Assembly: GCA_000002445.1 (NCBI GenBank)
Contig: CH464491.1
Location: 3,680,001-3,744,000 of the forward strand
Origin: Trypanosoma brucei
Lineage: Eukaryota
Length of the DNA: 64,000 nucleotides
Reading direction: 5' to 3'
The notes beneath the pieces are model-generated. The model saw only the letters and a list, made by a program, of their open reading frames with translations. It searched no databases and was not told the DNA's origin. Positions 11,872-50,335 of the stretch are shown in pieces. Position numbers and translations under genes: made by a program. Positions within the stretch are counted from its first letter, which is position 1. Each line of letters opens with the position of its first letter.

Positions 11872-11901
11872 TGCTTGTGTGCTTGTGTGTGTGTGTGTGT
11901 G
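11872..11901 (+). repeat. (GT)n microsatellite
   Basis: gcttgtgtgtgcttgtgtgtgtgtgtgtgtg read directly. Confidence 0.85.
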
Positions 11902-12021
11902 ATTTATTAGTTGTACAGGCGCCCGTCAGAAGTACTGGTGGTTGTATAGTAGGTATATTATTCTTTTAATACCTCCATAGTGCTAATAAACAAAACAAGT
12001 GGCTCAGTAAACTCTTTAACA

Positions 12022-12058
12022 AAACAAACAAACAAACAAACAAACACACACACACACA
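12022..12058 (+). repeat. (CAAA)n-(CA)n compound microsatellite
   Basis: aaacaaacaaacaaacaaacaaacacacacacacacata. The complementary (GTTT/GT)n follows at 12121-12150. Confidence 0.85.
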
Positions 12059-12154
12059 TACAGGAAAAAAAAAAGAGAGAGAAGGAGAGGGAAAAGCGGA
12101 AAGGTGAAACAAAGATTTGGGTTTGTTTGTGTGTTTGTGTGTTTGTGTGGGAAC

Positions 12155-26537: not shown

Positions 26538-27124
26538 CGACCCTCATATCAGAGGTATTACGTTGACCCAATTGTCAGTACAGAGTGAGGGACAATAAGT
26601 GAAGGTTGCGGTTTTTTTTCTTAAAAGTTTCGTACTCATATTTTACTTTCCCCCCCTCCCCACACCTTTATGTCAATATCTGCACGTGTGTGCTTAAATG
26701 AAACAGAGCGGGCTTGGAAGAAAAGGATAATGTGGAGACAGGGGTAAGGTAGAAATACTGGTATGTGTGAAAGTGCTGGTGCGTAGACTGAGAAAAATGT
26801 GCAAAACATAAAGTAATGAGGGAGTAAAGAGATGATGGATTGTTAGGAAGATCCGGGGAGAACGCAACTTAGAGAACAGGAAAAATAAATATAAATAAAT
26901 ATATGTATTCGATGTGTGAGGAGGTGTGAAATGGTTTCATTCGCCTGTCAAATATAGTTTGAGTTGATTCTTTCCCCCCTCTCCTTCTACTCGTTGCTGA
27001 TTTTGATGACAATTTTTTAAGTTTTAACTTTCTTACTCCGCCTTCTCCCCCTCGTCATTGGTGCCGCTTCCGTTGGAGCGGTGTGCAACACTTTCGTGTA
27101 AGCCAGTTTGCGCGGATGTTAACT

Positions 27125-27249
27125 ATCCCACTACCTTTGTCCCTTGTTTATTTTCGCACTGTACTCCTCATTACTGCGTTTCCTTGCAATTATTTCGCCT
27201 GCGCGAACGACACCGAACGTCTTCCCCCCTTTTTTCTTTGCCTTCGCAC
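27125..27249 (+). promoter_or_regulatory. extended polypyrimidine tract plus AG upstream of calpain-like gene
   Basis: About 120 nt are strongly C/T-biased (ccactacctttgtcccttgtttattttcgcactgtactcctcattactgcgtttccttgc...cttccccccttttttctttgccttcgcacag), ending in AG 11 nt before ATG 27260. Confidence 0.45.
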
Positions 27250-31780: not shown

Positions 31781-32951
31781 GCCTGCTTGTTTTTGTTATA
31801 TTCTTCCTTTTTCCCTCCCCGCTAATGTGAACAGCAGGTGACTCGTATACAATGTAATTTAGTGACTCGCGTTCGCACGCATTTCAATTGGAGGTATGTG
31901 AACTTTTTTTTTTGTTCAGCCTCCTTTTTTTTTTGTTGCAGTGCACTCGTTGAGATGATTTGCTCGTGCGTTCATTACGTGTCATAAATATACGTGCATC
32001 GGTCTGTTTATATTTGTGCATTTGTAAGAAGTATTGTATCTGTTGTTGGTATGTAACGTGTTGCACCGCGTCGGCAACTCATTTCCCCCCCTTTATTCTT
32101 TTATGCTTCTGCGCTTTTAATTCTCCCATTTTTCTTTTTCTTTACGTATGTGTCTATTTCCTCATCCCCTTTCTGCAACGATACTGCGGTAACGGGAACA
32201 ATAGGACTTTAGGAGACAAAAAGAGAAAATAAAGCCACACAACGGGTAAGTGTGAAGGAAGGGAAACAACAGAAGAGTAAAAAACAAAGGAAGTGAAAAC
32301 GAAGCAAGGAGAAATAAAAGAAAGGTCAGCGAAAATTGGGAAAAAAGTGCAAAAAAAGAAAAGGAATTAGAAAGCCCCCAAACAAAAACATACGTTTATA
32401 GAAACAGCACCTATCAAGGAAAGTTAGAAGGAAGGAAATCCGTCCAAAAAGAAAAAAAAAGAGGTTGGTGCCAGTGACCGCAATCATAATCGCTTTTTGA
32501 TCTCTCAAGGACTTTCCACAGGAGGAAAGGGAAAGGAGGAGAGAAAAGCACATCAGTTTGCGAGTTTCTTGCATAGCGTAGAAACAGAGAGAACGAGAAA
32601 AGTGTTTCTGTCCCTAGTGATTTAAATAAGAGGAAGTTGACGCAAAGGGAGGAAACCAAGAGGAAGTGTAAAAGAGAGAGAGACGGAGGAGAATATATAT
32701 ATATATATATAAATATATATACTGTGTTTTTGTTTTTGAACTTTATTTTCCCATATTCGATAACCGGCGCGATTGTTTGATAAATCACTTCTGTCGTTGT
32801 GTTGATTGATTTGAATCCCTTGAAAAGTATTGAACCCGGAAACATCCGTCGGTTTCTCTGCACAGAGCTGTACGCCTTGTGCTGAAAAGCCGCAGACATT
32901 CAACCATAGGTATCCACTTCAACCCGAGCTTGTGCATCCTCCACGTGAGTA

Positions 32952-34502
32952 ATGGACAGCATCACTGCAAACGATTACGATACGGAGTCAATGAAAGGTT
33001 TGTACAATGTCACACTCGAGGTTACAAAGTCCCCCTCCGGGGTCCATAGTGACAACAATGGTGACGCCGATGAGGCAGAAACCAATAAAGGCTACAAAAA
33101 TGTCAATCCAGATTGTGTGAATGCATTAGCCGCCAATAACTCTCGCAAGCAGGAGGAGAAGTACCTCGCGATGTTTAACGATTTTAATTCACACAATCTA
33201 CTCGATGTCCCAGATTCTGCGAGTCCGCCAAGATATCAACCAACTCTCTCAGGTGTGGATTACACCTTTTCCTACGTGGGGTCATCCCCCTTCGCCTCTG
33301 TTGTGCAAACAAACGATGCAGATGGTACCCCGGAAGGAAGAATGGAGCCGCTTTCAGACGCGTACCCTTCTGCTAACGGAAACGCACATCAGTCGTCGGC
33401 AAATGAACCGTCAAACAATGCGCCCTGCGTTTACGCCTCCATTGAAACATCTCCACTGCAAGGCCGTCGTCTTAATTTTCGAGCGTTTCTCACGAAGAAA
33501 ACCGTCCCCACTTCGATTATGAAAGAGGGCCAGGCTGGAGTGTTTGTTGGGCAGCTTCCTTCCACTTACACGGAGGAGGATACTGCTGCGTTGCTACGGG
33601 CGATTGGTGACGACGCGGGTGTACCAGTTCACGTACGAGACGTGAAGAGTCACAACCAAAGCCGTACATGCGCCTTCGTAACAGTCAATCAAGGGGCTCT
33701 GCAGGTGCTACTTGGCTATTCGAAGCGTGTTTTGTGTGATTCCGTTTGCGTATGGGTTGTAGAACCTGAGAAGGCACAGTATCTGAAGGACTTTGTAGAT
33801 GGATTGGTGCGGGAGCGATTGCGTGGCGTCCCGAAGGCAGCACTTGTGTTGGAACAACTCACACCGCAGTATGTAAGAGGGCAGGCTAGTGGCGGAAAGG
33901 AGTGGAAAGGTGCAAGTCCCCATGGAAGAGATGTTATGGGTCCTGTGGATGGTTTCTTTATGGCAATGCCCACTATGATAACTTCCACCGCTCCTCCACC
34001 ACCGCCGCCCAATGGCTCCGAAGGCCAAGTTGTCGCAGGCACTCATATGCCGATGAGTGTTTTGATGCCTTCGTGGGGAGCCGTCCAGCAAACGGCGGGA
34101 AGACGACCCACCGCTGCTCCTAACGGGTCGCAGGTGGTGGGTGCATTTCCTGGTGCTAATATTTATGGTAATCCAGGTGCTTGCTTTATTGCGGTACCTC
34201 CACCAGGCCCTGTTGCGGCTCGTTCACAGCAAGTGAATCTTTGCGTGATGGCCCCGGGTACGGGCGCTATGCAACCGGTGCCATATGTAACAAATTATGC
34301 CGGTGGAAATATGTACGCCCAAGCCGCCACTGCTGGTAGTGCCCCTGCTACGGTAACTATGCAACAGGCGGGTACGAGTGCATCACCCGTGCAAGTTGGA
34401 ATGGGTGGTTTCGGCCAGCAGGTTGCAGGTGGCTCTACCGTATATTTGCAATCCGTCCCACCTTATGCGTTACATCAGGTATTGCAGCAGCCGCAACAAT
34501 AG
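32952..34502 (+). CDS. putative RNA-binding protein with RRM-like domain and Q/G/P/A-rich low-complexity C-terminus
   Basis: RNP2-like GVFVGQLP and RNP1-like RTCAFVTV lie within a ~80-aa block (aa ~185-265). The C-terminal ~200 aa are rich in P, G, A, Q, M and V (PPPPPNGSEGQ..., QQPQQ end), i.e. prion-like. Confidence 0.62.
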   Translation: MDSITANDYDTESMKGLYNVTLEVTKSPSGVHSDNNGDADEAETNKGYKNVNPDCVNALAANNSRKQEEKYLAMFNDFNSHNLLDVPDSASPPRYQPTLSGVDYTFSYVGSSPFASVVQTNDADGTPEGRMEPLSDAYPSANGNAHQSSANEPSNNAPCVYASIETSPLQGRRLNFRAFLTKKTVPTSIMKEGQAGVFVGQLPSTYTEEDTAALLRAIGDDAGVPVHVRDVKSHNQSRTCAFVTVNQGALQVLLGYSKRVLCDSVCVWVVEPEKAQYLKDFVDGLVRERLRGVPKAALVLEQLTPQYVRGQASGGKEWKGASPHGRDVMGPVDGFFMAMPTMITSTAPPPPPPNGSEGQVVAGTHMPMSVLMPSWGAVQQTAGRRPTAAPNGSQVVGAFPGANIYGNPGACFIAVPPPGPVAARSQQVNLCVMAPGTGAMQPVPYVTNYAGGNMYAQAATAGSAPATVTMQQAGTSASPVQVGMGGFGQQVAGGSTVYLQSVPPYALHQVLQQPQQ

Positions 34503-37500
34503 GGGGAAAGTGTGCGTGTGAGTAAAAACCTGCCCTTCGTCCTTTCGACTCATGTTTGCGTATATAAATATATATATATATATTTATTTTTATATGTGTG
34601 TGTGTTTGCGACATTTGATGGTGGAAACTATTTTGACACGAAACGCTTTTCTTTTCTTGACTGTATATTTACGTGATCGTACACCACTTCTTGTGCTTTT
34701 GTTTTTGTTTTTCTTGTTATTTATGATTCGAACAGTATTTGGGAAAGTTTGTTGGTTTGTTTGTTTTTTGTCGATATTGCTTTTTGGGAGTATTTTTGTT
34801 TTTTTTTTGTAGAAGATGATACTAATGCTAAACACAAGGGATATTTGTAAATACAGCAAAGATATGAAGTCGAAACAATAACAAAGAAAAAAAGCTTTAA
34901 AAAAAAATCACTCTACCAGCGTGAGCATCTTACAGAGTTTGGAGCAGTCGTAAATTTCCTCTTTTATTTGGTTGATCAAATCATTTGTCCTTTTTTTTTC
35001 TTTGTATCACTTCTATTTTTTCTTTATTTCTCGTTGAAAGAGGACAGAGACGAGAGGAATTCGCTGCTCTAATGATGTTGGGTGACTCAAAGGAATTGTG
35101 ATTTCTTTTTTTTTTTCCTTTTTTCCTTTTTTTTTCTTCGTTACCTTATTTGAATGGGAAAGGGAGGGAAAGGATGAGCGTTTGAAATGAAGGAGAGTTG
35201 AGTCTGACTCCCCCATTCCTTCAAAATATTATTTAAAAAAAATGACAAATAATATTTAATAACTAATATACGATAAAGTGAAGAAAAAAATGGGGATAAT
35301 TTTTTTTTTTATTTAAAACAAAGTCAAGAAAGAAAAAAAAGAAGGAAAGAAAATATCGACAATAGTGAACACGCTGCCTGTCGATTTTTTTTTTCTTTCC
35401 TTCTTTTTTTTCTTTTCTTTCATTTTCCTATTTTCTTGTGTGGGATTTGTGACGGTGGGGACATCACCCCAACTATGGGAACCGTGGGATATAATTTGGG
35501 AAGTGAAATAAATAAATAAATGGAAAAACTCATCGCACTGTTGTGGATAAAAACAATACCAATGGAGTGAATGAGTAAATTGAAAAAAAAATCAGATTTA
35601 AATAAATAAACAAAGGAATGGGGGAAAATGAAATTAAAATAAGGGAAAAAACAAAAATCATCCCGACAGCGCTTGAGTGGGTGAAGACGAAGTTAAAGCA
35701 TAATTAATGGGAGAAGGGAAGAGGGAAAAAATCAATGGCGTACGGAATATATAAATAAATTTAATATGTAAGTTGTAAGATGATATATAAATAAACAAAT
35801 ATATATATATATTAACACATACAAAAAAGGGCAAACGTAAAGTGAGGGGTATGTGTATGTTTTGTATACGTGGAGTGCGGTAGCTTTGGAATGAACGAGA
35901 GGGAAAAGGAAAACAAGAAGCGAGTCGGTGGGTGTACACAACAACAATATAAAAGAGAAATAATAATAATAATAATAATAATATATATATTTGTATAAAT
36001 ATGATAGAAAGTGTGATGAAAGGGAAGTGGTGCTGGTGCTTATTCGTTTAGGTTTTTCTTTTCTCTAAAAGTTTTCCACTTGTTTGGTTTTGTAAACTCA
36101 ATGATGCACATAATTGAAGTGTGACAACAGTTTTGAGCCGGTTATCTTTTTTTTTTGTTTTGCACGCTAGTGGAGGAAAAGAAATTGAGGACAAGAATAT
36201 GAAAGTTTCACACAAATACACAAATAAATAGTTAAAGCGCGCACATTTACAAAAAAATATGAGAGAAGGAAGCCCTGTCCTCAATTGTTATCTTTATTAT
36301 TATTGTTATTATTATTTTTTTCCCCCTTAGCGTTGCTTTCTCATGTCTTCTCTTTTTTTCTTTTTTACTCTTTTTACTTTTTTTTACTTTTTTTTTTAAA
36401 AAAATATTTTACTTCTTCATTGTATTTGCCTCTGTTCGTTCACACCTTTCTTTTACTTTTTTTTTTCTCCCCGTTCGTGTTTTTTTTTTTGACTGCTTAC
36501 GCTTTCCTTTGTTTTTGTTTTTTGTTATATTATTTTGGTTGAACGTATAACTTCTTCGCGTTGTCGTATACCATATGACCAGAAGAAAGGAGAATTAAAG
36601 GAAAAAAGAAAAAGAAAAAGAAAACAAAAATAAAAGAAAAGAAAGGACGCTTTCATTTTTTTTTTCCCCCTTTCCTTTTCTTTTGCAATCCCTTTTTTCT
36701 TTTCTTTTCTCTTTCCTTTTTTTTCTTTGCGTGTGTTTTTTTTTTTTTACATTTCCCTCACATTTTAAGAGATGAGAGAAGGAACGAGTTAGTGATGTAA
36801 TATGAAAAAAGAGGAAAAAAGAAAACAATATTGACGAGAGGATATATATATATATATGCTTTGAATGAAAAAAAAAATAAAGTAATGATTAAAAAATCAC
36901 TGATTTTATTATTACTATTATTATTACTGTTATTATTATTATTACTCATATCAGCTTACTCATAGTTGTCGTTGACTGTGTTTTGTTTCTTATTATTTTT
37001 ATTTCCGTGCTTCTTTTCGGTTTATTTCCGTTTGGTACACTTTTGGACCAATGGAAGAAAAAAAAAAAAAGAAAATAAATGAAACGAAAAGAGAGAATTT
37101 CTCACTCTTTGTTTATTTTACTTTCCTTACTTTTTCTCTTTTTCTTTTTTTTTCTCAAATTTTTTTGTTAAAATTCTTTTCTTTCTGTCGTTGTGTTCCC
37201 ATGAAACCGTGTTGGTAACACTGACAAAGAAAGAAAGGGGATTATTTTATATTTACCAGGGAGAAAAAGAAAAAAAAAAGGTAAATAACAATGAAGCAAC
37301 AGATGAAAACAGAAGCAACAAAATATAGATAAAAAGAAGGAAAAAAGAAAAAGAAAAAAAGGAGAAGAAAAAAAAAAGAGAAAGAACTTTTAGGACAAAA
37401 CATGAAACAAAGCAAAAAAAAAAGAAAAAATGAAAAAAAAAAGAACAAACACACACTAAAAACACGAAAGAAAGGAAAAGGAAAAGGAAAAGAAAAAGAA

Positions 37501-40500
37501 AAAATGAAAAAAAAAAGAAAAACACGTTTGTATTTAATAATGGGGAAATGGAGTCCCTTTCTTTTCATTTCATTTCTTTCCTTCTTTATTCTCTCTCACA
37601 TAGATGGACAGTACGAGATATGCATTCACAGCAAACCAAAAAAATAAATAAATAAATAAAACAACCACTAATGATAATAATAACAGCGACAGCTAAATAT
37701 ATTAGTTTATGTTGCTTTTTTTCTTTTTTCTTTTTTCTTTTTTGTTTTTAACACTTTCACTCACTCTTTCACTTTTCCTCTTGTGTTATATATTTTTACA
37801 TTTTTATATTTTGAAATTTTTTTTTTTAAAAAATGCGCGGGCCCCCCCTTTTATTAAAGTTCCACCCCCCATTTCCCTTTCCACTGGCCTTCTTTTTTTT
37901 TTTTTATCTTTTTTTTTTAAAGGAGGAAAAAAAAGCAACAACAGCAACGACAAAAAGAGAGAAGTGAAGGAATGAAAATGAAAATGAAATAAATGGAGGT
38001 GCGTGTGTTGGGGGTTTGGGGGAGGGAAAATGAAATTTCAGTTTTTGGGCCCGTGCTTCACCTCAAACAAAAATAAAAAATAAAAAAGAATAATAATAAT
38101 AATAACAACAACAACTATTATTATTACTGTTAAAAAAAAGGAGATTTTTTTTCTTTTTTGGAGAGATGGAAGGAAGGGAAAATATTTTTGTGTTTGATGT
38201 TTGTGGGTGTGTGCGTTTTGATGTTCTTATGTCGTTTTTTTTGTTTTTTTGTTTTATTTTGTTCCCCTTTTGTATACTTATTTATGTAATGGAAGTGGAG
38301 AGGAAAAGAATGAGGAGAGAGGTGAATAAAATAAAGATAATAAAAAAAATAAAAGTAATAACACAACGTTATATCAAATGCAATGGAAGAGAGAAACAAG
38401 AGGAAGGGGGAAAAAATGAAAAAAAAAAAGGAAACACACATTTTTTGAACATGCACTTGAACGCTTGAATGAATAAGCGGATGTATGAATACAAATTAAA
38501 GAAAAAAAACAGGTGGAGTATATGAAAAATATGAATGGAGAAAATGAAAGACATGTTGAATTCGTTGAATTGCATTTGGTTGAAATGAAATGAAAAGAGA
38601 AGAAAAGAAAAGATGTACGTATGAATGAATGGATGATTGAAAGCATTACATTGACGAAAGAAAGAAAAGAGAGAAAAGTATACGAGAAAAAACACACATA
38701 CATACACATGAGTACATATATATATTTTTATACATTAGTATATGTTTATATAAATGTGTATGTATCAAACAAACAAACAAAAGAAAGTAAATATGTGATG
38801 GAGAGGCAGAACAAATTGAAGGAAATATTGCGAATGTTTCAGCAGAGAATAAAAACTGGAAAACAAAAAGAAAAAGGAAAAAGGAAAAAGAAAGAAAGAG
38901 AGGGAACGGAACAGCAATAGCACCCATACACACATACACAAACAGAAAAAAAAAAAAGAACAAAAGAAAAACAAAGGCAGAAACAAGAGCGATTAACAGA
39001 AACATTTTTTTTTAAAAAAAAGAGAAAGAAAGAAAGAAGGAAAGAGAAAGAAAATTTAAGTTGAAATTTTTATTTCTTTTCAACTTAAAACGTTTGTGGT
39101 GACGGCTGTGAAGGAAAGTAATAATAATGAGATGGATGATGGAGGGGAGCCCAACGTGGAGATGAAAAGAGCGTTTTATTTTGTTTTAATTTTTCCTTGA
39201 ACACTGAAGGGGGAGGGAAGCTTCTTTTTTTTTTTTCACTTAAAAAAAAAAAATTAAAACTCTGCGAGAGCAGAGAAGAGGGGAGGTGTGGAGATCTTCT
39301 TTTTTTTCTTTTTATCTTTAAATAAGTATCAATTAGATAATGGAGGGACGAGTTTATTAATATAAATTCTGTAGAAGGATACAGAACGACAAACTAATTG
39401 AAATATGAAAGGAAAAAAAAATGAAAATAATAACAATAATAATAATATTAAGGTAGGAGAAAGTCAGTTATTTACAAATTAATCAAACGTCTCACATGCA
39501 CCTCACACATTGAAAGGAAGGAAAGTAAATAGATCAATTAATTAATTAATTCAAAGGCCGATGGAAGTGAAAGGAGTGAAAGAAAAAGAAAAATGAAATA
39601 AAATAACAAAGACAGAAAAAAGAAAAAGACCAAACAAAAGAAGTGGTGTTGCGTATATTTGTACCGAATGGGAAGCCAATGGCGCAAGGCGGTGAGTTGA
39701 AGGGGACTTTTTTTTTTTGTGGAAGTTCCACCTTTTGCTCTTGCTTATTTTTTTTTTTTAAAAAAGAATTTAAATGCTTTTATTTTTCTTTTTTCTTTTT
39801 CTTCTTCTTTTTCGTTTTGTCACGCTGATATTATCAACTTCACCGTCCGTTTCGCTATTTTTGTTTTGTCTTCCTTCACTTCCTTTCCGTCAAAACGTTA
39901 AGCGGCAAAGCGAAAACAAAAAAAAGGTGTGGGGATGGGAGTGGGAAAAAAAAAATGGAAAATTTTCGTGAGAGTTTTTTTTTTTGTGGGAGAATTATAA
40001 TATTTGGTGGAAATTTTCTTTTTTCTTTTTGTTTTTTTTTAATTTTGTAAGTTGAACGAAACAAAATATATATATTTCTATGGATGAAAATGCGCATACA
40101 AAAGTGCATCGTAATTTTGAAAATATGAGGGATAATAAAAAAGGATTAAAAAAAAAAGAGAAGAGAAGCGTAGGGAATAGCTACTTTTCTTTTCCTTTTT
40201 TATTTTATTTTTCGTTGTAACATTAAACTATTTGAAGAAACTAAAGCGATGGGAGGGGAATAAATAATAATAATAATAATGATAAGAGAGAAAGAGATAT
40301 GGAGGAATAGATAAAAGATAAATTTTGCATTTTATGCGTATGTGTGAAGGAGATGGGAGAGGTGTGAAATATAAATTTATAAATAAAGGGAAATGGACCA
40401 AAAGGAGAGAGAGGGGTTGGAACAGAGGAGGAGGAGGAGGAGGAAAAAAAAAAGAAAGACAGGAAGAATAAAAATACAATTAAGAGGAAAACCTGAAGGA

Positions 40501-43500
40501 TAGCAAAAAATATATCAACAAAGAAACAAAAAAAAACAAAAAAAATAAAATGCTTGGTTGCATGACATAATATGAACATGCAATACTTTGATGGATTTTT
40601 CTTTTTCTTTTTTTTTTCTTTGGAGGGAGAGGTGTATGGGAGTGGGGTTTGCCTATCTTTTTGTTTAGTTTTGTACGCCATTCCTTTTTATTTTTATTTT
40701 GTTATTTACTTATATTCATTTATATTGTTGTATTTTTCCATTTGTACGCCATATGCACGTGTGAGATACGCGCTCACATTTTTGGCTCCCACTTGTTAAT
40801 TTCGTTCTTGTTTTTTTTTGTTTGTGTGTGTGGCTCCTTTTCCGCCCTCTTTTCTTTTCTTTCCCTTTTTTTTTGTTTTTTGCATTTGTATTTGCATTTG
40901 TGTGACTCATGCTGCTGCTTTGAATATCACATTTTTTTTTTTGTGAATCTGTAGAGTCGAAGACGGTGAGATGATGATATCAAAGAAAAAAAAAGAAAAG
41001 GGAAAACAAAAAAAATGTTAATGAAAAAAATGTATTGAAAAAAAAAGAGAAATACAAAAAAGGCACAAATGGAAATTAAGTCACGGAGGAAGTGGCTGTG
41101 TTAAGTTTTGTTTTCCTTTTGGCTCTTATAAATATATGTTTGCATTATATTGTGCCTTTTTTGTATTTCTTTTTTTTTTTTGTTAGGGAACTGCTTTTTA
41201 TTTTCCTTATTTTGGAGAGTCTCTGGAAAGAAAAAAAAACAATCGAAATAGGTGAATAGCGGAAATCGACAGTGCATGAAAAAAGAAAAAATGAAAAAAA
41301 AAGGAAAATGAGATTCATTTGAGGAAATATTTCGAAAAGAAAAGATTTGGTACATTACGGCTTCTCATTTGTGTTATGTTTTGAAGTTGATGAAAGCACA
41401 GACATGTAAGTGTGTGCTTGAAGATGTATATATTTATATATTTATATATGAATGGAGGATTTTTTTTTTCCAAGAGAAAAATCATTATTGTGAAGGTCAC
41501 GCACCGCTTCCTTTTCTTGTATATATTTGTATTGAAGAAAAAGAAAATGGAAATGGAAATCCATACGGTTGCTTATAATATAAATATGGACGACAGGACA
41601 GAAGATATAACATTGATATGAAGGAGGGAGAAAGAGAAAAAGAAAAAAAGAAAGAGAAAGGAATGTGATATTATTTTATCATATGGTACACAATGGTGAA
41701 ATGCATTGTCGTCCGCTTCTTCTTTCTTTCTTTTTTTTAAAAAAAAACTGTTTGTTTGATTTCTAATTTTATTCCTTAATGTGAAGCGATGCCACAGGCC
41801 TCGTTTTTTTCTTTTTCTTTTTCTCCTTGTTTTTTCGTGCTTTTTAACTTTCGCTACTCTTTCATTGCTTCTGTTGCTGCTGTCGTCAATATCATACTCG
41901 CTTTTTTTTTTCAAATTAATTCTCTTCCGCTACGGTGGGGCGGGCGGTGCCGCGTATCCCCTTCAACTTTCCAACATTTTAAGCGGTTCCTTCAAAATAT
42001 ATTTTTAAAAAATGAAAAAAATGAAAAAAAAATCAAGAGAAAACAGAAATGGAAATGTGAGAGAAGGGGGAGGGGAAAAAAAAAAAGAAGAAAAGGCACC
42101 ACCACGCTTTTGGATATCCGCACATGACTGATGTGCGTTTCTTTTTTTTTTTTTGCTGTGATAGGTTTATTATTATTATTAATATTATTAATATTACCAT
42201 CTTTTTTTTTTTTTAAAGAAAAAACTTTTTCGCTCTTCGCTCCTTTGAATAATATGCTAGCGGGAAGCGAAATATGTCCATTGTTCCTTTTGTTTCTTGC
42301 TTCTGTACGTGTTTTCTTTCCCCCCTCTTTTTTATTGCTTTGCTTCAGTAGGAAAATTAGTGGAGGTTGAATATATATTTCAGTTCGGAAGAAGAGGAGG
42401 AAATAAAATATGAAATGAAATAAAAAAAAATGAAATGAAAATTAAATTAAATTTGAGCAGAGAGAGGCTCCAAGGGAAGTAAATAAAATTAAGAAAACAA
42501 CAACAACAACAAAGAATGAATGATTTAATTAATTAACATAAATGAATAGGAGAGGAGTCAGGTGAGAAGATGAGAAGGAAGGGTAAAAGATTTGAATAAA
42601 TCGGAGAGATTTATCCGTTTGGTTGTTTTTGGAGAAGCGAAACTTTAAACTCTTTTCTTTCCTGATTTGTTTTTTTCTCCTGTACATTGTTTTCTATATA
42701 TATATAAATATATATATATGTATTCTTTATGTATGTATGCATTTATGTATTTGCTTCATCTTCTGCAGGCCCATCCATCCATTCATCCATCCTAAAATGA
42801 AAGTAATATATAAATATTGCAAACAACAAAAGGAAAATAATTTTATATAATTTTTTTTTTTCGTGTGGGGGTGTATGCAGATGAGATTTTATATTGCGTT
42901 TTGGTGCTCAATCAACACCATCACAGCTGGTGGAGAGTTTTTTTGTTAGAAGAAAAAAAAAGAAAGCAAAAAAGAGAAGAAAAGGATAATAATAAAAAAA
43001 AAGAGTGTTTTGGGGGAAATGGAGAGAATTAAAAAATAAGAAGAAATAATACCAGTGAGTTGCATGGGATTGTGGTACATAAATTATTCCGTAGCGATAT
43101 TTCTTCTTTTTTTTCTTTTTTACATTTTAATTGAAGGGCTGCCGCACAGACGCCTTCCTTTTATGCCTTTGGACTACAATAATTTATGGAGTTTCACTTT
43201 ACTTTTTTCTTTTGGGTTTTTTTGTTTTGTTTTCGGTGGAAACAATCCGTTGTTATAATTATAAATAAGTGAGTGTGAACAGGAGGTGTTATTTTATTAA
43301 TTTTCTCATTACTGTTGTTGTAAACGTTTATTACTGTTTTCTGTTTTGCATCGCTTGGGTGCTTGTGTGTGGTTTATTTGTATTTGTGTCGGAAGCATAT
43401 AAATATAAGTTTTTTTTTAAAAAAAAGAATAAATTTATTTGTATTTTGTTACTGTTTTTTTTTTCCCCTTTGCTTCCGCTGTTGTTGTTATTGCTGTTGT

Positions 43501-44050
43501 TCGGTTTTACATCCCTATGGCACGACGTTAAGCAAAATTTTTATTTTTCGATTCAAACGATTCTTCAGACGATTTCTTCGTATGCTTCTTCCATTTTCCC
43601 TAATCGCTTTTTCATGTCTGTTTTTGTTCGTTTTTTTTTTTGTACTTCACTGATTGCTCACTACTTCCGCTTCCCTCTTCCCTCTTTTCTCTTCTCCATT
43701 ACTTTTTATTTTTATTATTTTATTGTTATTATCAATATTATTATTATTATTACTGCTCGCATATTGCAGGGGTTTGAGCGAGGAGAAAAGGAGGAAAATA
43801 GTATATATATATATATATATATATAATTTATATAATATATATAATATATTTATATATTTTTCAGAGTGGTTGTGCACTTTAGGGACATCGTCTCGTTTTC
43901 GTATCTCCTCCCCACACACAAAAAGAAAAATTATGCAAATTTACGTCGCTGCTGTTAACTTCCTTTTGTTGTTTTTTTTTCTTATATTCATTCCTTATTT
44001 CATTTAAATTATATTGTAACCGTCTTACATCATTATTAGTGTCGTCATTA

Positions 44051-44099
44051 CTATTATTATTATTATTACCGTTGAGTTGTTGTTGTTGTTGTTGTTGTT
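44051..44099 (+). repeat. (ATT)n-(GTT)n compound microsatellite
   Basis: ctattattattattattaccgttgagttgttgttgttgttgttgttgtt read directly. Confidence 0.85.
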
Positions 44100-44708
44100 C
44101 TTTGTGTGTTTATTTATCTATGAAATGTTACTGTTACTATTACCTGATGTTCGTTGATGCCGTCTCTGTTTTTTTTCTTCTGTTTCTTATGTTTTATTTT
44201 CTTCTTTTTTTCCCCCTTTTTTTTTCCTCCTCCCCGCCATTACCCGTTGATTTGTTATTTCCGGCTCCTCCAACCTGCCGTCAACAACTATTTCTCTCTC
44301 TTTTTTCTCTCTCTCTTTTTTTTTGATTTATTATTTCGTTCACTGCCATCTTTTCTTTACCTTTTTAGTTTTTTTTTTGTTTTCCATTCCGTTACTTTGT
44401 GTATTTGATGCCGCTGCCGCTTTTGGAGGAAGGACAAATAACCCAAGTGGTGTGATGATTATCATCACAAAAAGTAATAGTAATATCAATATTTGTTTTT
44501 TTGTTGTTATTATTAATAATTAAGAGAAAAAAGTTATCATTTTTTTTTCTTGGTTTTTGATATTGAGTGGTATGGGAAAGCTGAATATAGAAATATATAT
44601 CTCGAAAGCGAAGAGTCGAAACGGTACATGAAACTTAAGATCATTTTCTTCTTTTTTTTAATTTGTTTTTTACTTTTTTCCTTCTTCTTTCACATATACA
44701 CACATATA

Positions 44709-44739
<31 letters not shown>

Positions 44740-44840
44740 TGTGTAAGTGTATTTTTATGTATGTATGTGTGTAACCCTTCTATAAGGGCTCGGAGGAAAA
44801 AAAAGTAAAAGATAAAATAAAATAAAATGAAAAGAAATGC

Positions 44841-44865
44841 AATGGAATGGAATGAAATGAAATGG
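44841..44865 (+). repeat. (AATGR)5 pentanucleotide repeat
   Basis: aatggaatggaatgaaatgaaatgg. Related aatgaaatgaaa motifs recur at ~37971, 38571, 42411 and 45826. Confidence 0.7.
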
Positions 44866-46450
44866 AAAGAAGTAAATTAAATGAGTGGAGGAAAATTTAT
44901 AAAGTTGATTACTTTGGTTTTTTTATATTTATTTATCGTTTGGTACGTGTGCGTGCATGCGTGTGAGGTGTGCTGTCCCAGAACATATCATATCATATTA
45001 TATTATAATATAATAAAATATATCTTTGCGTATCTTTTTTTTTTTTTGCACACAGGTATATATAAATATATAAATAAATAATAAATAAATAATAATAATA
45101 ATATATATATATATTTGGCATTTTCCCTGAAGGAAATGCTTTTATTATGTCAGAAGGAAGGGGGAAAACAAAAAAAAAATAATTTCATATGGACAACAAC
45201 AACAGCAACAAAACTTTTCTTTTAAAATGTCTGCTGAAAGCGAGGTGTTTGAATGTTTTTTTGTTTTTTCTTTAATTTTTACCTTCTTTCCGTTTCTTTT
45301 TATTCAAAGGGTTCCTCTTCATATACGGACGTAATATTATATATTATATCAAAATATTAACATGTTGTCCGGACCCTTGTGCGAGTGTGTTTTATTCATT
45401 TATTTTGTTTTATTTTGTTTTTAAAAATATATAATTCATGCATGGTGGCAGTTCCACCACGCTGAGCGATATTGGACAAACAAACATCGAAAGTGAAAAA
45501 TATTAATAAAAATAGTAATAATAATGATAATAGTGGTGATGAAGGAAATAAGAACAAAAAAAAGGTAAATAAGTGGAAAGTAAGAAGAAAAAGAAGTTGC
45601 AACTCAGAAAAATTATTAGAAATTTGAAAAAAAAATAAAGGAAGGTAAAGCAGCTGAACTTCCGTGATCCTTCCGCTGGATCATTTTTTTTTTTTAATCC
45701 TTCTTTTCTTTTCTTTTGTGCTTGCGCTTGCTTCCCTTTCTTTTCTCTGTTTCCCCCTTATTTTTGTTAAAATTTGTGTTAGCCACGGACCACGTCAGGG
45801 AATATCACAAAAAGAGAAAACAAAACAAAAAAATGAAATGAAATGATATGAAGTAAAAAATAAATACAGAAATAAATATAGTTAAACCCAAACATATTCA
45901 TATGCCTACAGCCTACTGTCAGGCGGGTCTGAAAGGAAAATGAGAAATGAATGTTTTCACTTTAAATTCTAATATTTACTGCACATTTTCTTTTTTGTCT
46001 GTCCTTTTTTTTCTTTATCCCCCTCTTCTCCTCTACCCTTCTTAAAATTCATTTTCCCCCGTGCACTTATTTGGCAAATATTACCATTACCATCACCATT
46101 ACAACTTCCACCTCTTCCTTTTTGCATCATTTGTTCCCACTTTTTTTCCCCCTCTTTTCTATTTTTCGTGTATTTGCCTTTCCCTTTGTCATTACTCTTC
46201 TTTTTTTCTTACTTTTTCTTTTTTTACTTTTTTTCCTTAATATTAAATATCATTTCTTATGCGCACAACCATTTCTTCGTGCTTCTTTTTTTTTTTGTTC
46301 CCCCATTTCCCCCTCCTTTTCCGCCTAAATATGCATTTACTTCGTGTTCCGCTGATGTATTTACTTTTTGTCTTAAGGTGAGACATGAGAGGACGTGAGA
46401 TAAAATGAAAAGGGGACGAAAAATACTGAAGGAATTTTATCGAATGATCG

Positions 46451-46502
46451 CCGATTATTATTACTATTATTACTACTACTATTATTATTATTATTACTAC
46501 TG
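46451..46502 (+). repeat. (TTA/TAC)n trinucleotide repeat
   Basis: gattattattactattattactactactattattattattattactactg gives poly-Tyr (YYYYYY) in ORF 46405. Confidence 0.85.
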
Positions 46503-48129
46503 TTTTTGTTATTTTTCATGTTGGCGCCGTCGTTTCGTCTTGGTTTCTTCACAGTGCATTTTTATTTTTGTCTCTTTGTTGTTTGGGTCGTTTTGCTCTT
46601 TTTTTTTTCTCTTTTTTTTTTTAAAAAAAAGGGGGGGAGGAGCAACCACTTCGGAATACCCGCGTATTGTTTTTTTTTCATTTAATCAGGAAGCGATTTT
46701 AAGGGAAAAGAATAGCGGAGTGAGGGGGAAAGAAAGCAAAAAAAAAAAGAACAAAAAAAGGAGGAAGAAAGAAAGTCAGCATAAGGTGAAGAAATGGGAG
46801 AGAAATGTAGTAAATTTTTTTTTAAAAAAAGAAAAGGTGTGCGCATAGGAAGTAATACGAGGGTGGAGGGAGGACCGAGTTTTTACTTACTTTTTTTTTT
46901 TTTACTTGTTGTTGTCGCTTACATGTGTTTCAGCAAAATAAATGTGTGGGGCAATGTATTTGCCATGTTTGGTGTTGTTTTCTTTTTTAATGGTTCGTGT
47001 TGTATTGTGTGAGTTCCTTTTTCTGTTTCGGATGTTGTTACGCTGATGGCTAGTTTTGTTGTTACACTGGCACTGAATAGCTCGCTATGTTATAACACTT
47101 ACATATCAATCAACATTTCCTTTATCTTACGTTGTTATATGGACATTAATTTTTGTAAGAGTTTTTTGTTGTAATCCCCCCCCTATTTCCTACATATTAT
47201 TATACAAGAGGCTTCCCTTCCTTTGCCACTGTTTTCTTTTCTTTTCTTTCTTCTTCTTCATGGTCTCGTCTGGATGACTTTCCATTTTGTTTGTTTTTCA
47301 TGTGTCTTGTGTGTTTCCTGCACGTCTACTTGTTAACATTATTCAGATATTGTTATTGTCATTATCATCACTTTCTTTCCTTTTCTTTTCCTCTTTTTTT
47401 AAAAAAATCTCTCTGACTGTTGGATTTTGTCCTCGTCGACTCACAGTGCTGACAAGAAAGTAAAAAAAAAGGAAAAAAAACATATATGCGCGTATATGCA
47501 TGTAAAGGTTGGATTTCTCCTGTACTTTCATTTATTCATGGATAATATGGATAATGTGGATAAATGGTTCTTGTTGATTTATTAATTCTACGTTTTTATC
47601 CTTACTTTTATCATTTTCTTCCCCCTCTCTTTCTCTTCCTCTCTGTGTCTGTTTATGTATCATTTTCAATAAAGATTTTGCGGCCTAGTCGAACTACCTT
47701 AAATTTGATCCTCATATCACCCGTTTCTATTCTCATTGTTATTGTTATCATTTTGAATGTTTTAAATTTGCGTGCTGCATTATTATTATTATTATTATTT
47801 GAATCGCAGCGAGTGAGTAATTCATTGAACTTAATCGAGGTATTTTAGCAAGGAAGGAAGGGGGAAAAGCAAAAAAAAAAACAAAAGAAGAAAACTACAT
47901 AAATTAACCGACCTACTGGAGATCGCAAAAAGGGACTTCACTTTGTTTTGTTTTCACTCTCCAGAAAGCAAAACATAACCAAAGTGGTGGTTTAATATTT
48001 TTTTTCTTTCAAGGATATACACAAAAATAAGCCAAATTAGTGGAGGCGCTACAGTTAAGTTTTAGGGCCCAGTCTATACATATATATTTCTCTCTAGGTA
48101 CAGTTTCTCCTTCTGTTTCTTCTGAGAAA

Positions 48130-49494
48130 ATGAATGATAGGGAGTTGCGGGCTTACACAAAACTCGATGTCCTCAAGAGGCACTATAGCGCACTAGCGGC
48201 GGAAGCACTGCACGACTACATCAACGACTTTATGCCATACACAGAAAATTTCAAAAACATTTCATGTCACTTCTGCAACAATGACAAACAACTTCTTTTA
48301 ACTTTGGATTGTCCGATCTATGTGATGCCGCCAGGTGTAAATGCCGCTGCTGCACCCCGTCAGGGTTTGGTGCATCCGCTGCGTGTTGAAGTTGTTTTTT
48401 TGGCCAACTTCCCAAACTCTGCTCCCACCGTTAAACTCCTTCCGAATACGTTTCGTTGCGGCAATTTAACCGAATGGCGTGTGCGTCCGGCTTCTAGCAT
48501 CATGGATGAAGATGGTGCCATTCACTTGGAGAAGTTGGCGCTTCTTGAACAGGCTGTGGTCCCGTATTCTCTTTTAGAAATACTTGTGGCACTTACTGAG
48601 CAGTTCGAAGCGGAATTCCCGCTAACTCCATCAGAGAGGGAACCCATCGGACAAAACCCCCCCATAGCCACTGCCACGCCACCCGTTTCCTCGATTGTAA
48701 ATTCTGTTGTTAATAGTACTTTTTGTCCCACAGACGGTTCGGCTCCACCCAACGTTATGCCTGTGCCTGAAATGCCGACAAGTGACCCATCTGTTGTTGG
48801 CCCACATAACCAACTTATTCAAGGGGCGTGCGATGCAGTCATGATTCATTTGCTCTTCAAGGCAGATGCTTATTTGGATACGCGAGCTAAGGCTTTGGAA
48901 TACCTAAAAACGTTAGACAAGGCATCAAATGAACTGCGCAGTGCACTTGCAACACTTGAGAAGAATAAGGAAGAGCTACTGAAGTTCTCTCCCGCCCCCG
49001 GCAGAGTTGAAGACCTCACCACCACCCTGGAGCAAGTCGCGAATTCTATGGAAACACACTCCGATTGTATCGTACCAGCGGATGAGGTGCACGCTCGGGC
49101 GTTAGAGTTGTTAGGGGACATTCACTCCCTGGACGATGTGTTGGAGTTGTTGGAGCGGTCTCTACGGCATGGGCAAATAACGTGCGAGGAATACGTTCGT
49201 CGTGTTTCTGATGTTGGTCGGCAGCAATTTGAAGCTCGGTTTCTCTTTGACCGTTTAACGGCTGCGGTCCGTGGTACCCAAAGATGTGGTACGCCGCTTC
49301 CTTCTGATGTCGTGCCGACGGCAAATGCACGAGAAGAGCCATCCGCAACTCAACCGACAACACTGGCCGAGGTGATTAAACAGCTGCATGAGGAGTTTCC
49401 TGATGTTGAATTGGATGTTGTTAAAGCGGTGCTGGAGGTGACGGAGATGAACCTTTCTGAGACCCGCGTACAGCTTCATGCCATTATGTCGTAG
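48130..49494 (+). CDS. VPS23: Vps23/TSG101-like ESCRT-I subunit (UEV domain) with CUE-like C-terminal motif
   Basis: N-terminal UEV-like fold (YTKLDVLKRHYSALAAEALHDYINDF...PIYVMPPGV...LVHPLRVEVVFLANFPNSAPTVKL: an inactive E2 variant lacking the catalytic Cys context). A Pro/Ser-rich linker and a coiled coil (KALEYLKTLDKASNELRSALATLEKNKEELLKF) follow. The C-terminal segment is LAEVIKQLHEEFPDVELDVVKAVLEVTEMNLSETRVQL. The track start is GTG 48040. The first ATG is at 48130. Confidence 0.68.
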   Translation: MNDRELRAYTKLDVLKRHYSALAAEALHDYINDFMPYTENFKNISCHFCNNDKQLLLTLDCPIYVMPPGVNAAAAPRQGLVHPLRVEVVFLANFPNSAPTVKLLPNTFRCGNLTEWRVRPASSIMDEDGAIHLEKLALLEQAVVPYSLLEILVALTEQFEAEFPLTPSEREPIGQNPPIATATPPVSSIVNSVVNSTFCPTDGSAPPNVMPVPEMPTSDPSVVGPHNQLIQGACDAVMIHLLFKADAYLDTRAKALEYLKTLDKASNELRSALATLEKNKEELLKFSPAPGRVEDLTTTLEQVANSMETHSDCIVPADEVHARALELLGDIHSLDDVLELLERSLRHGQITCEEYVRRVSDVGRQQFEARFLFDRLTAAVRGTQRCGTPLPSDVVPTANAREEPSATQPTTLAEVIKQLHEEFPDVELDVVKAVLEVTEMNLSETRVQLHAIMS

Positions 49495-50176: not shown

Positions 50177-50196
50177 AATGTGTGTGTGTGTGTGTG
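50177..50196 (+). repeat. (GT)n microsatellite
   Basis: aatgtgtgtgtgtgtgtgtgc lies upstream of the WD40 gene. Confidence 0.9.
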
Positions 50197-50271
50197 CAAG
50201 GGGGCGGGACCATATGTTATGCACGAAAAAGTTGTACCGTAATGTACGAATGCGTGGTGAAACCTAAAGGC

Positions 50272-50335
50272 ACTCTTCTCCCTTTTCTGCCCATATGTAG
50301 GCTTATTCGTACCGTTGTCTTTGTTCTCTTTGCAA
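50272..50335 (+). promoter_or_regulatory. polypyrimidine tract upstream of WD40 gene
   Basis: cactcttctcccttttctgcccatatgtaggcttattcgtaccgttgtctttgttctctttgc sits between the (GT)n repeat and ATG 50467. Confidence 0.4.

What the first reader, a model, noticed from the sequence alone, without database searches (positions are those of the whole stretch)
34503..48129. 13.6-kb gene-free, low-complexity, strand-skew-alternating block inside a single-direction gene array
The gene spacers elsewhere in this window are ~0.5-1.5 kb. Here 13.6 kb separate the stop of the RRM gene (34502) from the start of the Vps23-like gene (48130), although both are on the + strand. The block is extremely AT-rich with no credible ORF. 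It is built from alternating ~200-600 bp segments that are poly-pyrimidine on + (e.g. 36285-36540, 37700-37930, 43270-43700) or poly-purine on + (36595-36830, 37240-37570, 38800-39060). These are interspersed with (ATT)n, (TA)n, (GTT)n and (AATGR)n microsatellites and with short direct repeats (e.g. aaaaagaaaaaatgaaaaaaaaaagaa at ~37418 and ~37491). I can think of four explanations. (1) It is an internal head-to-tail boundary of Pol II transcription units, i.e. termination plus re-initiation. In trypanosomes such sites are marked by histone variants and base J rather than by sequence-defined promoters. (2) It is a giant UTR or long non-coding RNA locus. (3) It is an origin-proximal or chromatin-organising region. 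(4) It is a degenerate satellite expansion that tends to collapse or expand in assemblies. The alternating purine/pyrimidine blocks would give transcripts of either strand U-rich or A-rich segments, and they could also form triplex or H-DNA.
Basis: partly seen in the sequence, partly recalled or inferred. Interest (0 to 1): 0.65.

Follow-up and report, generated by a model that had tools for sequence, protein, structure and literature searches.

The report
Giant 3'UTR of trypanosome REG9.1 gene
The 13.6-kb "empty" AT-rich stretch is the very long, low-complexity 3' untranslated region of the Trypanosoma brucei developmental regulator REG9.1, plus non-coding RNAs cut from its far end; it has already been mapped in published transcriptome tables, so it is real but explained.

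Summary
Window 34503-48129 has GC 0.30, against 0.51 in coding sequence. It has no credible or conserved ORF. 46% of it lies in purine- or pyrimidine-rich stretches, against about 0.3% in simulations.

The window is T. brucei TREU927 chromosome 11 (v4 3,680,001-3,744,000). The upstream RRM gene is REG9.1 (Tb927.11.14220, old name Tb11.01.5820). The downstream gene is Vps23 (Tb927.11.14230).

Kolev et al. 2010 mapped the REG9.1 transcript from window 32150 to 47654, which gives a 13,152-nt 3'UTR. A published northern blot shows the transcript is larger than 6 kb. Guegan et al. annotate + strand non-coding RNAs inside the distal part of the block. Their 5' ends follow a pyrimidine tract and an AG, and the mapped poly(A) sites lie 156-171 nt upstream of the next splice site.

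Kolev's table of transcription units puts the locus inside one unit, with no initiation site in the gap. Three independent assemblies, one of which I believe is long-read, agree on the length to within 40 bp. A long non-coding spacer follows REG9.1 in four other trypanosomatids.

The unit boundary and the satellite or assembly artefact are not supported. The origin idea was not tested. The feature is already known, and interest is low to moderate.

The parts
32150..32951 (+). REG9.1 5' region. It holds the mapped transcript 5' end (32150), the alternative 5'UTR, and the non-coding RNA KS17gene_4295a (32205-32761).
   Evidence: Kolev 2010 Table S3 lists 5' end 3712150 (v4), flagged 'alt 5UTR'. 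Guegan lists 3771742-3772298 (v5.1). Offsets were solved.
32952..34502 (+). REG9.1 coding sequence (Tb927.11.14220 = Tb11.01.5820; UniProt Q382B5). It encodes a 516-aa RRM-type repressor of stumpy-form transcripts.
   Evidence: The protein is 100% identical to EAN80366.1/Q382B5. Q382B5 is listed as Tb927.11.14220, 'Regulator of ESAG9-1'. The v4 ORF 3712952-3714502 matches the window ORF exactly. Function comes from PMC5380359 and PMC4055773.
34503..47654 (+). Full-length REG9.1 3'UTR (13,152 nt). It is AT-rich and low-complexity and carries 73 pyrimidine tracts of 15 nt or more on the sense strand.
   Evidence: Kolev 2010 Table S3 maps the transcript 3' end at 3727654 (v4), which is window 47654. 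The same position is the 3' end of Guegan's KS17gene_4297a (offset). A northern blot shows a transcript above 6 kb.
42275..42348 (+). Internal pyrimidine tract ending in AG (42347-42348). This is the internal trans-splice signal whose use would cut the REG9.1 3'UTR to about 7.7 kb.
   Evidence: The pyrimidine block at 42275-42349 is listed. The sequence 'gctttgcttcag|TAGG' lies immediately before the KS17gene_4296a 5' end. That the short REG9.1 isoform exists is inferred.
42349..47276 (+). The 4,928-nt non-coding RNA KS17gene_4296a, derived from the distal part of the block.
   Evidence: Guegan supplementary table: Tb927_11_v5.1 3781886-3786813, + strand, classed 'intergenic'. The mapping uses offset 3,739,537. 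No conserved ORF was found.
47447..47654 (+). Short spliced RNA KS17gene_4297a. Its acceptor AG is at 47445-47446, after the pyrimidine tract at 47347-47414, and lies 171 nt downstream of the poly(A) site at 47276.
   Evidence: The published median distance from poly(A) site to splice site is 142 nt, interquartile range 123-178.
47655..48129 (+). The true intergenic segment plus the Vps23 5'UTR. An (ATT)7/T-rich tract at 47779-47800 is followed by AG, giving a splice site at 47810 (KS17gene_4298a, 47810-48022, classed '5'UTR of Tb927.11.14230'). A second tract at 47990-48010 is followed by AG at 48012-48013, a predicted proximal acceptor.
   Evidence: The proximal acceptor at 48014 is inferred from the sequence only.
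48130..49494 (+). Vps23 (ESCRT-I) gene Tb927.11.14230, 454 aa.
   Evidence: Pfam Vps23_core, E = 3e-16. The protein is identical to EAN80367.1. [quoted passage not shown]

Best explanation
The block is not an empty spacer. It is the transcribed, non-coding tail of the REG9.1 gene, inside one continuous Pol II polycistronic unit.

In trypanosomes an mRNA's 3' end is set by the next trans-splice signal that is actually used downstream. Almost none of the roughly 70 sense-strand pyrimidine tracts in these 13 kb are used. So the REG9.1 mRNA runs from about window 32150 to a poly(A) site at 47654, which gives a 13.15-kb 3'UTR.

A few internal acceptors are used some of the time: 42349, 47447 and 47810. 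This releases spliced, polyadenylated non-coding RNAs from the distal third. By inference, it also yields a shorter REG9.1 mRNA with a 3'UTR of about 7.7 kb.

The purine/pyrimidine block texture and the microsatellites are the ordinary low-complexity fabric of T. brucei UTRs. Here it is simply very long and fast-evolving, with many small indels.

The likely role (inferred, not shown) is a large landing platform for RNA-binding proteins. These would keep this dosage-sensitive differentiation regulator low in abundance and stage-regulated. It would also need factors such as DRBD18 to mask the internal pyrimidine tracts.
For: Identity:
- The window proteins equal TREU927 EAN80363-EAN80371.
- TSN is Tb927.11.14190, old name Tb11.01.5780.
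- Q382B5 is Tb927.11.14220, REG9.1.

Transcript mapping:
- Kolev 2010 Table S3 lists Tb11.01.5820 with ORF 3712952-3714502 and mapped ends 3712150 and 3727654. These correspond to window 32150-47654.
- The transcript is present at about 13 RNAs per cell in procyclic forms.
- Rico 2017 describes the REG9.1 northern signal as larger than 6 kb.
- Guegan's + strand lncRNAs 4296a, 4297a and 4298a tile window 42349-48022.
- With a single offset, 4 of 5 of their listed 5' ends (counting 4295a upstream of REG9.1 and one alternative boundary) sit directly after an AG. The three ends inside the block follow a pyrimidine tract.
- With the same offset, the 4297a 3' end equals Kolev's poly(A) site.
- The distances from poly(A) site to splice site are 171 and 156 nt, which fit the published interquartile range of 123-178 nt.

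Single transcription unit: Kolev Table S14 gives one unit from Tb11.01.5320 to Tb11.01.6250.

Non-coding nature:
- No credible ORF.
- No DNA or ORF conservation against the T. vivax, T. melophagium or Leptomonas spacers.
- No Rfam family or tRNA gene.

Conserved architecture: REG9.1 is followed by the longest local spacer in each species examined.
- T. vivax: 9.3 kb.
- T. cruzi: 5.4 kb.
- T. melophagium: 3.9 kb.
- Leptomonas: 3.7 kb.

Known pattern: mRNAs for RNA-binding proteins have multi-kb, low-complexity 3'UTRs full of pyrimidine tracts. Use of internal tracts yields truncated mRNAs plus non-coding RNAs.
Against: - Continuity of a single 15.5-kb molecule is not directly shown. Kolev's ends come from short reads plus visual inspection, and that paper's own text gives a 3'UTR range of only 'about 6,000 nt'.
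- Guegan classed KS17gene_4296a as 'intergenic'. This implies that the database 3'UTR annotation ends upstream of 42.35 kb.
- The northern blot only says above 6 kb.
- Kolev flagged the gene 'alt 5UTR', not 'alt 3UTR', so the two datasets disagree on how the distal part is processed.
- No functional test of this UTR exists in the papers I read.
- The chromatin marks (H2A.Z, H3.V, base J) at this locus were not examined.
Confidence: 0.85

Rival explanations
1. The REG9.1 3'UTR is shorter: a few kb, up to about 7.7 kb, ending before 42.3 kb. The rest of the block would then be one or more autonomous long non-coding RNA genes (KS17gene_4296a and others) with their own function, analogous to the grumpy lncRNA next to RBP7.
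For: Guegan lists a 4.9-kb + strand RNA, classed 'intergenic', whose 5' end sits at a pyrimidine tract followed by AG. Tinti et al. single out a sub-polysomal lncRNA next to REG9.1 as a candidate regulator. The northern blot only requires a transcript above 6 kb.
Against: Kolev maps the REG9.1 3' end at 47654 and did not flag an alternative 3'UTR. RNAs derived from UTR-internal splicing are common by-products. The lncRNA region shows no sequence conservation in T. vivax or other species. This rival is largely a matter of isoform proportions and is compatible with the main explanation.
Confidence: 0.3
2. The block is an internal head-to-tail boundary of Pol II transcription units, with termination followed by re-initiation, marked by histone variants and base J.
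For: It is a large gene-free gap between genes on the same strand. Positive GC skew runs over 35-43 kb. Internal initiation sites do exist elsewhere in T. brucei.
Against: Kolev's 5'-triphosphate-based table has a single unit from Tb11.01.5320 to Tb11.01.6250 that spans this locus. Transcripts mapped on the + strand cover the gap. There is no tRNA, snRNA or Rfam gene. Gene order is conserved from Leptomonas to T. brucei. The 35-43 kb stretch is A+G-rich, not G+T-rich.
Confidence: 0.05
3. The block is a degenerate satellite or an assembly artefact whose true length is different.
For: Short-read assemblies break here. The T. equiperdum OVI contigs end inside the block, and the T. grayi contig ends 2.3 kb after REG9.1.
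Against: The distance from the REG9.1 stop to the CCT-epsilon start is 19,426 bp in TREU927, 19,459 bp in DAL972 and 19,389 bp in T. b. equiperdum IVM-t1. The three are colinear and contain no N. TRF finds only microsatellites, with a top score of 85. The repeat families are 60-80% low-complexity matches.
Confidence: 0.02
4. The block additionally acts at the DNA level, as a replication origin, a nucleosome-free or chromatin-organising region, or an H-DNA-forming region.
For: It has 27 perfect homopurine or homopyrimidine runs of 25 nt or more, the longest 56 nt. It has 78 T-runs and 60 A-runs of 7 nt or more, with a strict T(n)A(n) polarity.
Against: No data were examined. According to my recollection of Tiengwe et al. 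2012 (not re-read here), T. brucei origins and ORC1 sites coincide with transcription-unit boundaries, and this locus is not a boundary in Kolev's table. The same texture occurs in other long UTRs of the window.
Confidence: 0.05

Closest known systems
RBP10 (Tb927.8.2780) 3'UTR, 7.3-8.5 kb
   Same: Both are very long, low-complexity 3'UTRs full of pyrimidine tracts on the mRNA of a developmental RNA-binding protein. In both, internal tracts can be used to give truncated mRNAs plus spliced non-coding RNAs. Both have an adjacent annotated lncRNA.
   Different: The REG9.1 tail mapped by Kolev is 13.15 kb, about 1.5-1.8 times longer. It has not been dissected functionally, and its dependence on DRBD18 or RBP10 is unknown. 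[quoted passage not shown]
ZC3H20/21/22 and other RBP or kinase mRNAs with 3'UTRs above 4 kb (Clayton 2019)
   Same: They belong to the same class: regulators carrying multi-kb 3'UTRs, proposed to keep mRNA abundance low and to allow control by many factors.
   Different: The length here is an outlier. Published ranges quote a median of about 400 nt, 6% above 2 kb, and 'some of 5 kb or more'.
grumpy lncRNA next to RBP7 (Guegan et al.)
   Same: KS17gene_4295a to 4298a come from the same lncRNA catalogue and flank a differentiation regulator.
   Different: No function has been shown for the REG9.1-adjacent RNAs. They may be processing by-products, and no snoRNA or Rfam element is embedded in them.
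Internal (head-to-tail) Pol II transcription start regions of T. brucei
   Same: Both are several-kb stretches between genes on the same strand.
   Different: No initiation site is listed here in Kolev Table S14, and sense transcripts cover the region.

Membership tests
Trypanosomatid long 3'UTR of a regulatory RNA-binding-protein mRNA | Lies directly downstream of the coding sequence, on the same strand, inside a polycistronic unit | tested here: met
   All 19 genes of the window are on the + strand. The unit Tb11.01.5320-6250 spans the locus.
Trypanosomatid long 3'UTR of a regulatory RNA-binding-protein mRNA | Experimentally mapped poly(A) site far downstream, and a transcript size consistent with it | tested here: met
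   This was checked in published data, not measured by me. The mapped 3' end is 3727654 (v4), which is window 47654. A northern blot shows a transcript above 6 kb. A single 15.5-kb molecule has not been directly shown.
Trypanosomatid long 3'UTR of a regulatory RNA-binding-protein mRNA | Poly(A) site about 100-200 nt upstream of the next used pyrimidine tract and AG acceptor | tested here: met
   47654 to 47810 is 156 nt, and 47276 to 47447 is 171 nt. The published interquartile range is 123-178 nt.
Trypanosomatid long 3'UTR of a regulatory RNA-binding-protein mRNA | Non-coding: no credible or conserved ORF | tested here: met
   303 stop-to-stop ORFs were searched against three orthologous spacers, and no significant hit was found.
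Trypanosomatid long 3'UTR of a regulatory RNA-binding-protein mRNA | Regulatory function of the UTR (binding of RNA-binding proteins, effect on mRNA level or translation) | not testable with these tools
   None of the papers I read reports reporter or CLIP data for this UTR.
Pol II transcription-unit boundary (termination plus initiation) | Enrichment of 5'-triphosphate RNA, H2A.Z or H4K10ac (initiation) | tested here: not met
   Kolev Table S14 lists no start between Tb11.01.5320 and Tb11.01.6250. ChIP tracks were not available to me.
Pol II transcription-unit boundary (termination plus initiation) | H3.V, H4.V or base J enrichment (termination) | not testable with these tools
   No coordinate tables were found for this locus.
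Pol II transcription-unit boundary (termination plus initiation) | Associated tRNA or snRNA genes, or a break in synteny (frequent, not obligatory) | tested here: not met
   No tRNA gene or Rfam family was found. The order calpain-like, REG9.1, Vps23, WD40 is kept in T. vivax, T. cruzi, T. melophagium and Leptomonas.
Satellite or higher-order tandem repeat array | Many head-to-tail copies of a unit, or a cryptic higher-order period | tested here: not met
   TRF finds only short microsatellites, with a top score of 85. The repeat finder returns only low-complexity families at 60-80% identity.
Trans-spliced long non-coding RNA (Guegan catalogue) | 5' end at an AG acceptor preceded by a pyrimidine tract, a polyadenylated 3' end, and no coding potential | tested here: met
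   The 5' ends at 42349, 47447 and 47810 each follow an AG. The catalogue entries scored in the held supplement (4295a, 4297a, 4298a) are marked 'noncoding'; 4296a was not found in that file.
H-DNA / triplex-forming tract | Long homopurine/homopyrimidine mirror repeats that adopt a triplex in vivo | tested here: inconclusive
   There are 27 perfect runs of 25 nt or more, the longest 56 nt at 37331-37386. Mirror symmetry and in vivo structure were not tested.

The most novel reading that the evidence does not exclude
The choice between read-through to 47654 and use of the internal acceptor at 42349 could be a stage-regulated switch. Read-through gives the 13.15-kb 3'UTR. Using the acceptor gives a 3'UTR of about 7.7 kb plus a 4.9-kb lncRNA. 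Such a switch would set REG9.1 dosage and so influence stumpy-form and procyclic differentiation, with the released lncRNA acting like grumpy. If the full tail is real, this would also be among the longest 3'UTRs described in the papers read here, and a natural test-bed for how some 70 good pyrimidine tracts are kept silent.
Probability: 0.12. Interest if true: 0.6.

Novelty: already known. Interest (0 to 1): 0.25.

Why it matters
REG9.1 controls transmission-stage gene expression in African trypanosomes, so how its own expression is set is biologically relevant. A 13-kb 3'UTR is an extreme case of the rule that regulators carry long UTRs.

For genome scanning the lesson is practical. In trypanosomatids, a long AT-rich block with no ORFs and patchy purine/pyrimidine texture between genes on the same strand is first of all a 3'UTR. 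It should be checked against spliced-leader and poly(A) maps before chromatin or boundary explanations are invoked.

Tried and rejected
- Rfam at gathering thresholds over the whole window and at E <= 1 over the block, plus ARAGORN. The only hits were sub-threshold miRNA-like matches on (TA)n and low-complexity sequence.
- TRF and a direct/inverted repeat search for cryptic higher-order repeats found none.
- blastn of the block, and tblastn of its 303 ORFs, against the orthologous spacers of T. vivax, T. melophagium and Leptomonas gave only low-complexity matches.
- A look-up of the T. congolense orthologue's contig found no record.
- Searches for the Vps23 gene ID and for published H2A.Z or start-region coordinates at this locus led nowhere. 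The Staneva supplement gave only the gene-ID mapping.
- RBP10-motif and ARE-like motif counts on the sense strand gave a mixed picture. UAUUUUUU occurs 4 times against about 8 expected, and UAUUUAU 9 times against about 3.6 expected. No conclusion was drawn from these counts.
- The four CDS models that the DAL972 annotation places inside the block (142, 110, 213 and 141 aa) have no Pfam hit. I infer from their positions, not from an alignment, that they correspond to the low-complexity ORFs seen in this window, and I rejected them as genes.


Full report
**Observation.** The block is as described. The upstream ORF (32952-34502, 516 aa) and the downstream ORF (ATG at 48130, 454 aa, Pfam Vps23_core E = 3e-16) are both on the + strand, as are all other genes of the window.
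- GC is 0.28-0.34 per kb inside the block and about 0.5 in the genes. Over the whole block it is 0.304, against 0.509 for pooled coding sequence.
- The only ORF of 150 aa or more is a 185-aa low-complexity string. All 58 ORFs of 60 aa or more are F/L/K/S-rich.
- I measured the purine/pyrimidine patchwork with 50-nt windows. This gave 66 blocks of 50-285 nt that are at least 80% purine (25.7% of bases) or at least 80% pyrimidine (20.2%). Two hundred first-order Markov simulations gave 0.26% and 0.09%.
- The other long spacers of the window have the same texture at lower density, 28-32%.
For example, 36595-36830 is purine, then pyrimidine, then purine.
- The microsatellites and the 27-nt direct repeat are confirmed.

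**Identity of the locus.** The RRM protein is 100% identical to T. brucei TREU927 EAN80366.1 (UniProt Q382B5). The neighbouring proteins are EAN80363-EAN80371.
- The Tudor-SN gene of the window is Tb927.11.14190, old name Tb11.01.5780.
- Q382B5 is listed as Tb927.11.14220, 'Regulator of ESAG9-1'.
- REG9.1 is an RRM protein that represses a tethered reporter. It represses stumpy-enriched transcripts and is most abundant and essential in procyclic forms.
- The downstream gene is Tb927.11.14230, Vps23.

**What is transcribed.** Kolev et al. [quoted passage not shown]
- The ORF coordinates match the window ORF to the base. The window is therefore Tb927_11_01_v4 3,680,001-3,744,000.
- The mapped REG9.1 transcript is window 32150-47654. 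That is 15.5 kb, with a 13,152-nt 3'UTR covering 96.5% of the block.
- Its abundance was about 13 RNAs per cell in procyclic forms.
- Independently, Rico et al. 2017 note that the REG9.1 northern signal smears because the transcript is larger than 6 kb.

**The lncRNA catalogue agrees.** Guegan et al. list + strand RNAs on Tb927_11_v5.1:
- KS17gene_4295a, 3771742-3772298;
- KS17gene_4296a, 3781886-3786813 (4,928 nt, classed 'intergenic');
- KS17gene_4297a, 3786984-3787191;
- KS17gene_4298a, to 3787559 (classed '5'UTR of Tb927.11.14230').

I scanned offsets from 3,739,200 to 3,739,799. Only 3,739,537 puts four of the five listed 5' ends directly after an AG. The three inside the block (42349, 47447, 47810) follow a pyrimidine tract. 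That offset also makes the 3' end of 4297a equal to window 47654, which is exactly Kolev's poly(A) site. So two independent data sets agree.

In window coordinates the RNAs are 4295a 32205-32761, 4296a 42349-47276, 4297a 47447-47654 and 4298a 47810-48022. The distances from poly(A) site to the next splice site are 171 and 156 nt. These lie within the published interquartile range of 123-178 nt.

**Not a transcription-unit boundary.** Kolev Table S14 was derived from 5'-triphosphate-enriched RNA and checked against histone-mark sites. It lists one + strand unit from Tb11.01.5320 to Tb11.01.6250. That unit contains Tb11.01.5780, 5800, 5820, 5850 and 5860, which are the genes of this window. There is no tRNA, snRNA or Rfam family in the window. 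I found no coordinate tables for H2A.Z, H3.V or base J at this locus, so those marks remain unexamined.

**Not an artefact or a satellite.** The distance from the REG9.1 stop to the CCT-epsilon start is:
- 19,426 bp in the window;
- 19,459 bp in T. b. gambiense DAL972;
- 19,389 bp in T. b. equiperdum IVM-t1, which is a chromosome-scale assembly and, as I recall, long-read-based.

Both other assemblies are colinear with the window and contain no N. A three-way alignment shows 1-3% substitutions per kb in the block, against 0-0.9% in the coding bins. It also shows 10-140 gap columns per kb, yet the total length is conserved. Short-read assemblies do break here: the T. equiperdum OVI contigs cover only up to 41046 and from 43808 onward, and the T. 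grayi contig ends 2.3 kb after the gene. TRF and repeat searches give only microsatellites and low-identity low-complexity families.

**Comparative evidence.** The gene order calpain-like, REG9.1, Vps23, WD40 is conserved. The spacer after REG9.1 is the longest spacer in each locus examined:
- T. vivax: 9.3 kb.
- T. cruzi: 5.4 kb, with neighbouring spacers of 0.36-0.83 kb.
- T. melophagium: 3.9 kb, with neighbouring spacers of 0.35-0.78 kb.
- Leptomonas pyrrhocoris: 3.7 kb.

No gene is called in any of these spacers. Neither DNA nor translated ORFs of the T. brucei block find a significant match in the three spacers searched, those of T. vivax, T. melophagium and Leptomonas. What is conserved is the presence of a long non-coding tail on this gene, not its sequence. 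The tail has expanded in the African trypanosomes.

**Mechanism.** The following is established knowledge, cited.
- Pol II transcription in trypanosomes is polycistronic.
- Polyadenylation is dictated by the next used trans-splice signal, which is a pyrimidine tract plus AG.
- mRNAs for RNA-binding proteins and kinases have the longest 3'UTRs.
- Loss of DRBD18 unmasks internal tracts, giving truncated mRNAs and spliced non-coding RNAs derived from the UTR.

The block fits this pattern. It has 73 pyrimidine tracts of 15 nt or more on the sense strand and 64 on the antisense strand, so there is no strand selection. Only three internal acceptors are recorded.

- *Shown:* the transcript ends, the lncRNA models, the acceptor sequences and the spacing.
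- *Inferred:* that a single molecule spans the full 15.5 kb; that use of 42349 yields a REG9.1 isoform with a 3'UTR of about 7.7 kb; and that the UTR serves to bind regulators and keep REG9.1 dosage controlled.

**Discrepancies.**
- Kolev's text gives a 3'UTR range up to about 6,000 nt for its 1,902-gene subset. Its own Table S3 implies 13 kb for this gene.
- Kolev flags this gene 'alt 5UTR' only, whereas Guegan splits off the distal 4.9 kb as 'intergenic'.
- Tinti et al. name the REG9.1-adjacent lncRNA 4296a in the text and 4295a in the figure legend.

**Verdict.** The finding is real, statistically robust and correctly delimited. It is an extreme member of a well-known class and is longer than the much-studied 7.3-8.5-kb RBP10 3'UTR. 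Novelty: already known. Interest: 0.25.

The residual open points are the isoform proportions across life stages, whether the distal lncRNA has a function, and the unexplained T(n)A(n) polarity noted in passing.

Noticed in passing
window 36391, 37821, 39007, 39753, 41732, 43412, 46616, 46817, 47394 (block) and 11808, 12783, 13874 (other long spacer): There is a strict polarity at T-run/A-run junctions. T(n)A(n) with n >= 5 occurs 15 times in the window, and all 15 lie in the two long AT-rich spacers. A(n)T(n) with n >= 5 occurs 0 times. For the 13-mers searched (T7A6 and A6T7), shuffles expect about 0.1 matches of each. Both motifs are self-complementary, so this is not a strand effect. By eye, about half of the T(n)A(n) sites are followed directly by G, which makes a U-tract plus AG. 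The polarity is unexplained.
   Followed up: partly
window 11039-16040: A second gene-free, AT-rich spacer of 5.0 kb (GC 0.344, 30% in purine/pyrimidine blocks) lies downstream of the alpha/beta-hydrolase gene at 10052-11038. Counting genes from the known IDs, I infer that this gene is Tb927.11.14160.
   Followed up: partly
window 27083-27220 and 50182-50301: Kolev 2010 Table S1 lists both the calpain-like gene (Tb11.01.5800, ORF from 27116, transcript 5' end at 27220) and the WD40 gene (Tb11.01.5850, ORF from 50242, 5' end at 50301) as having splice sites inside the annotated ORF. Their annotated start codons are therefore too far upstream.
   Followed up: no
L007 13572-14000, 14198-14530, 20687-21328; L009 2029-2454 (T. 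b. gambiense DAL972): The DAL972 annotation places four CDS models (142, 110, 213 and 141 aa, no Pfam hit) inside the orthologous block. TREU927 has none between EAN80366 and EAN80367. I take these to be spurious low-complexity ORFs.
   Followed up: partly
L001 end / L002 start (T. equiperdum OVI); L015 end (T. grayi): Short-read assemblies break within or just after this spacer. The OVI contigs lack window 41047-43807, and the T. grayi contig ends 2.3 kb past REG9.1. This is a practical marker of how hard the region is to assemble.
   Followed up: yes
window 36952-38951: This is the most indel-rich part of the block among T. brucei subspecies. It has about 120-140 gap columns per kb and BLAST identity down to 90-93%. 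It is centred on the long A/G-rich tract at 37253-37537. Total block length nevertheless stays within 40 bp.
   Followed up: partly
window 34503-48129, + versus - strand: AU-rich motifs differ between strands. TTATTTATT occurs 0 times on the sense strand and 10 times on the antisense strand. TATTTAT occurs 9 times against 26. The sense RNA is therefore rich in AAUAAAUAA-type repeats rather than in classic UAUUUAU elements.
   Followed up: no
PMC8240603 text versus Figure 16 legend: Tinti et al. name the sub-polysomal lncRNA 'at the 5' end of REG9.1' KS17gene_4296a in the text and KS17gene_4295a in the legend. By coordinates, 4295a is upstream of REG9.1 (32205-32761), while 4296a is the 4.9-kb RNA inside the downstream block.
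   Followed up: yes
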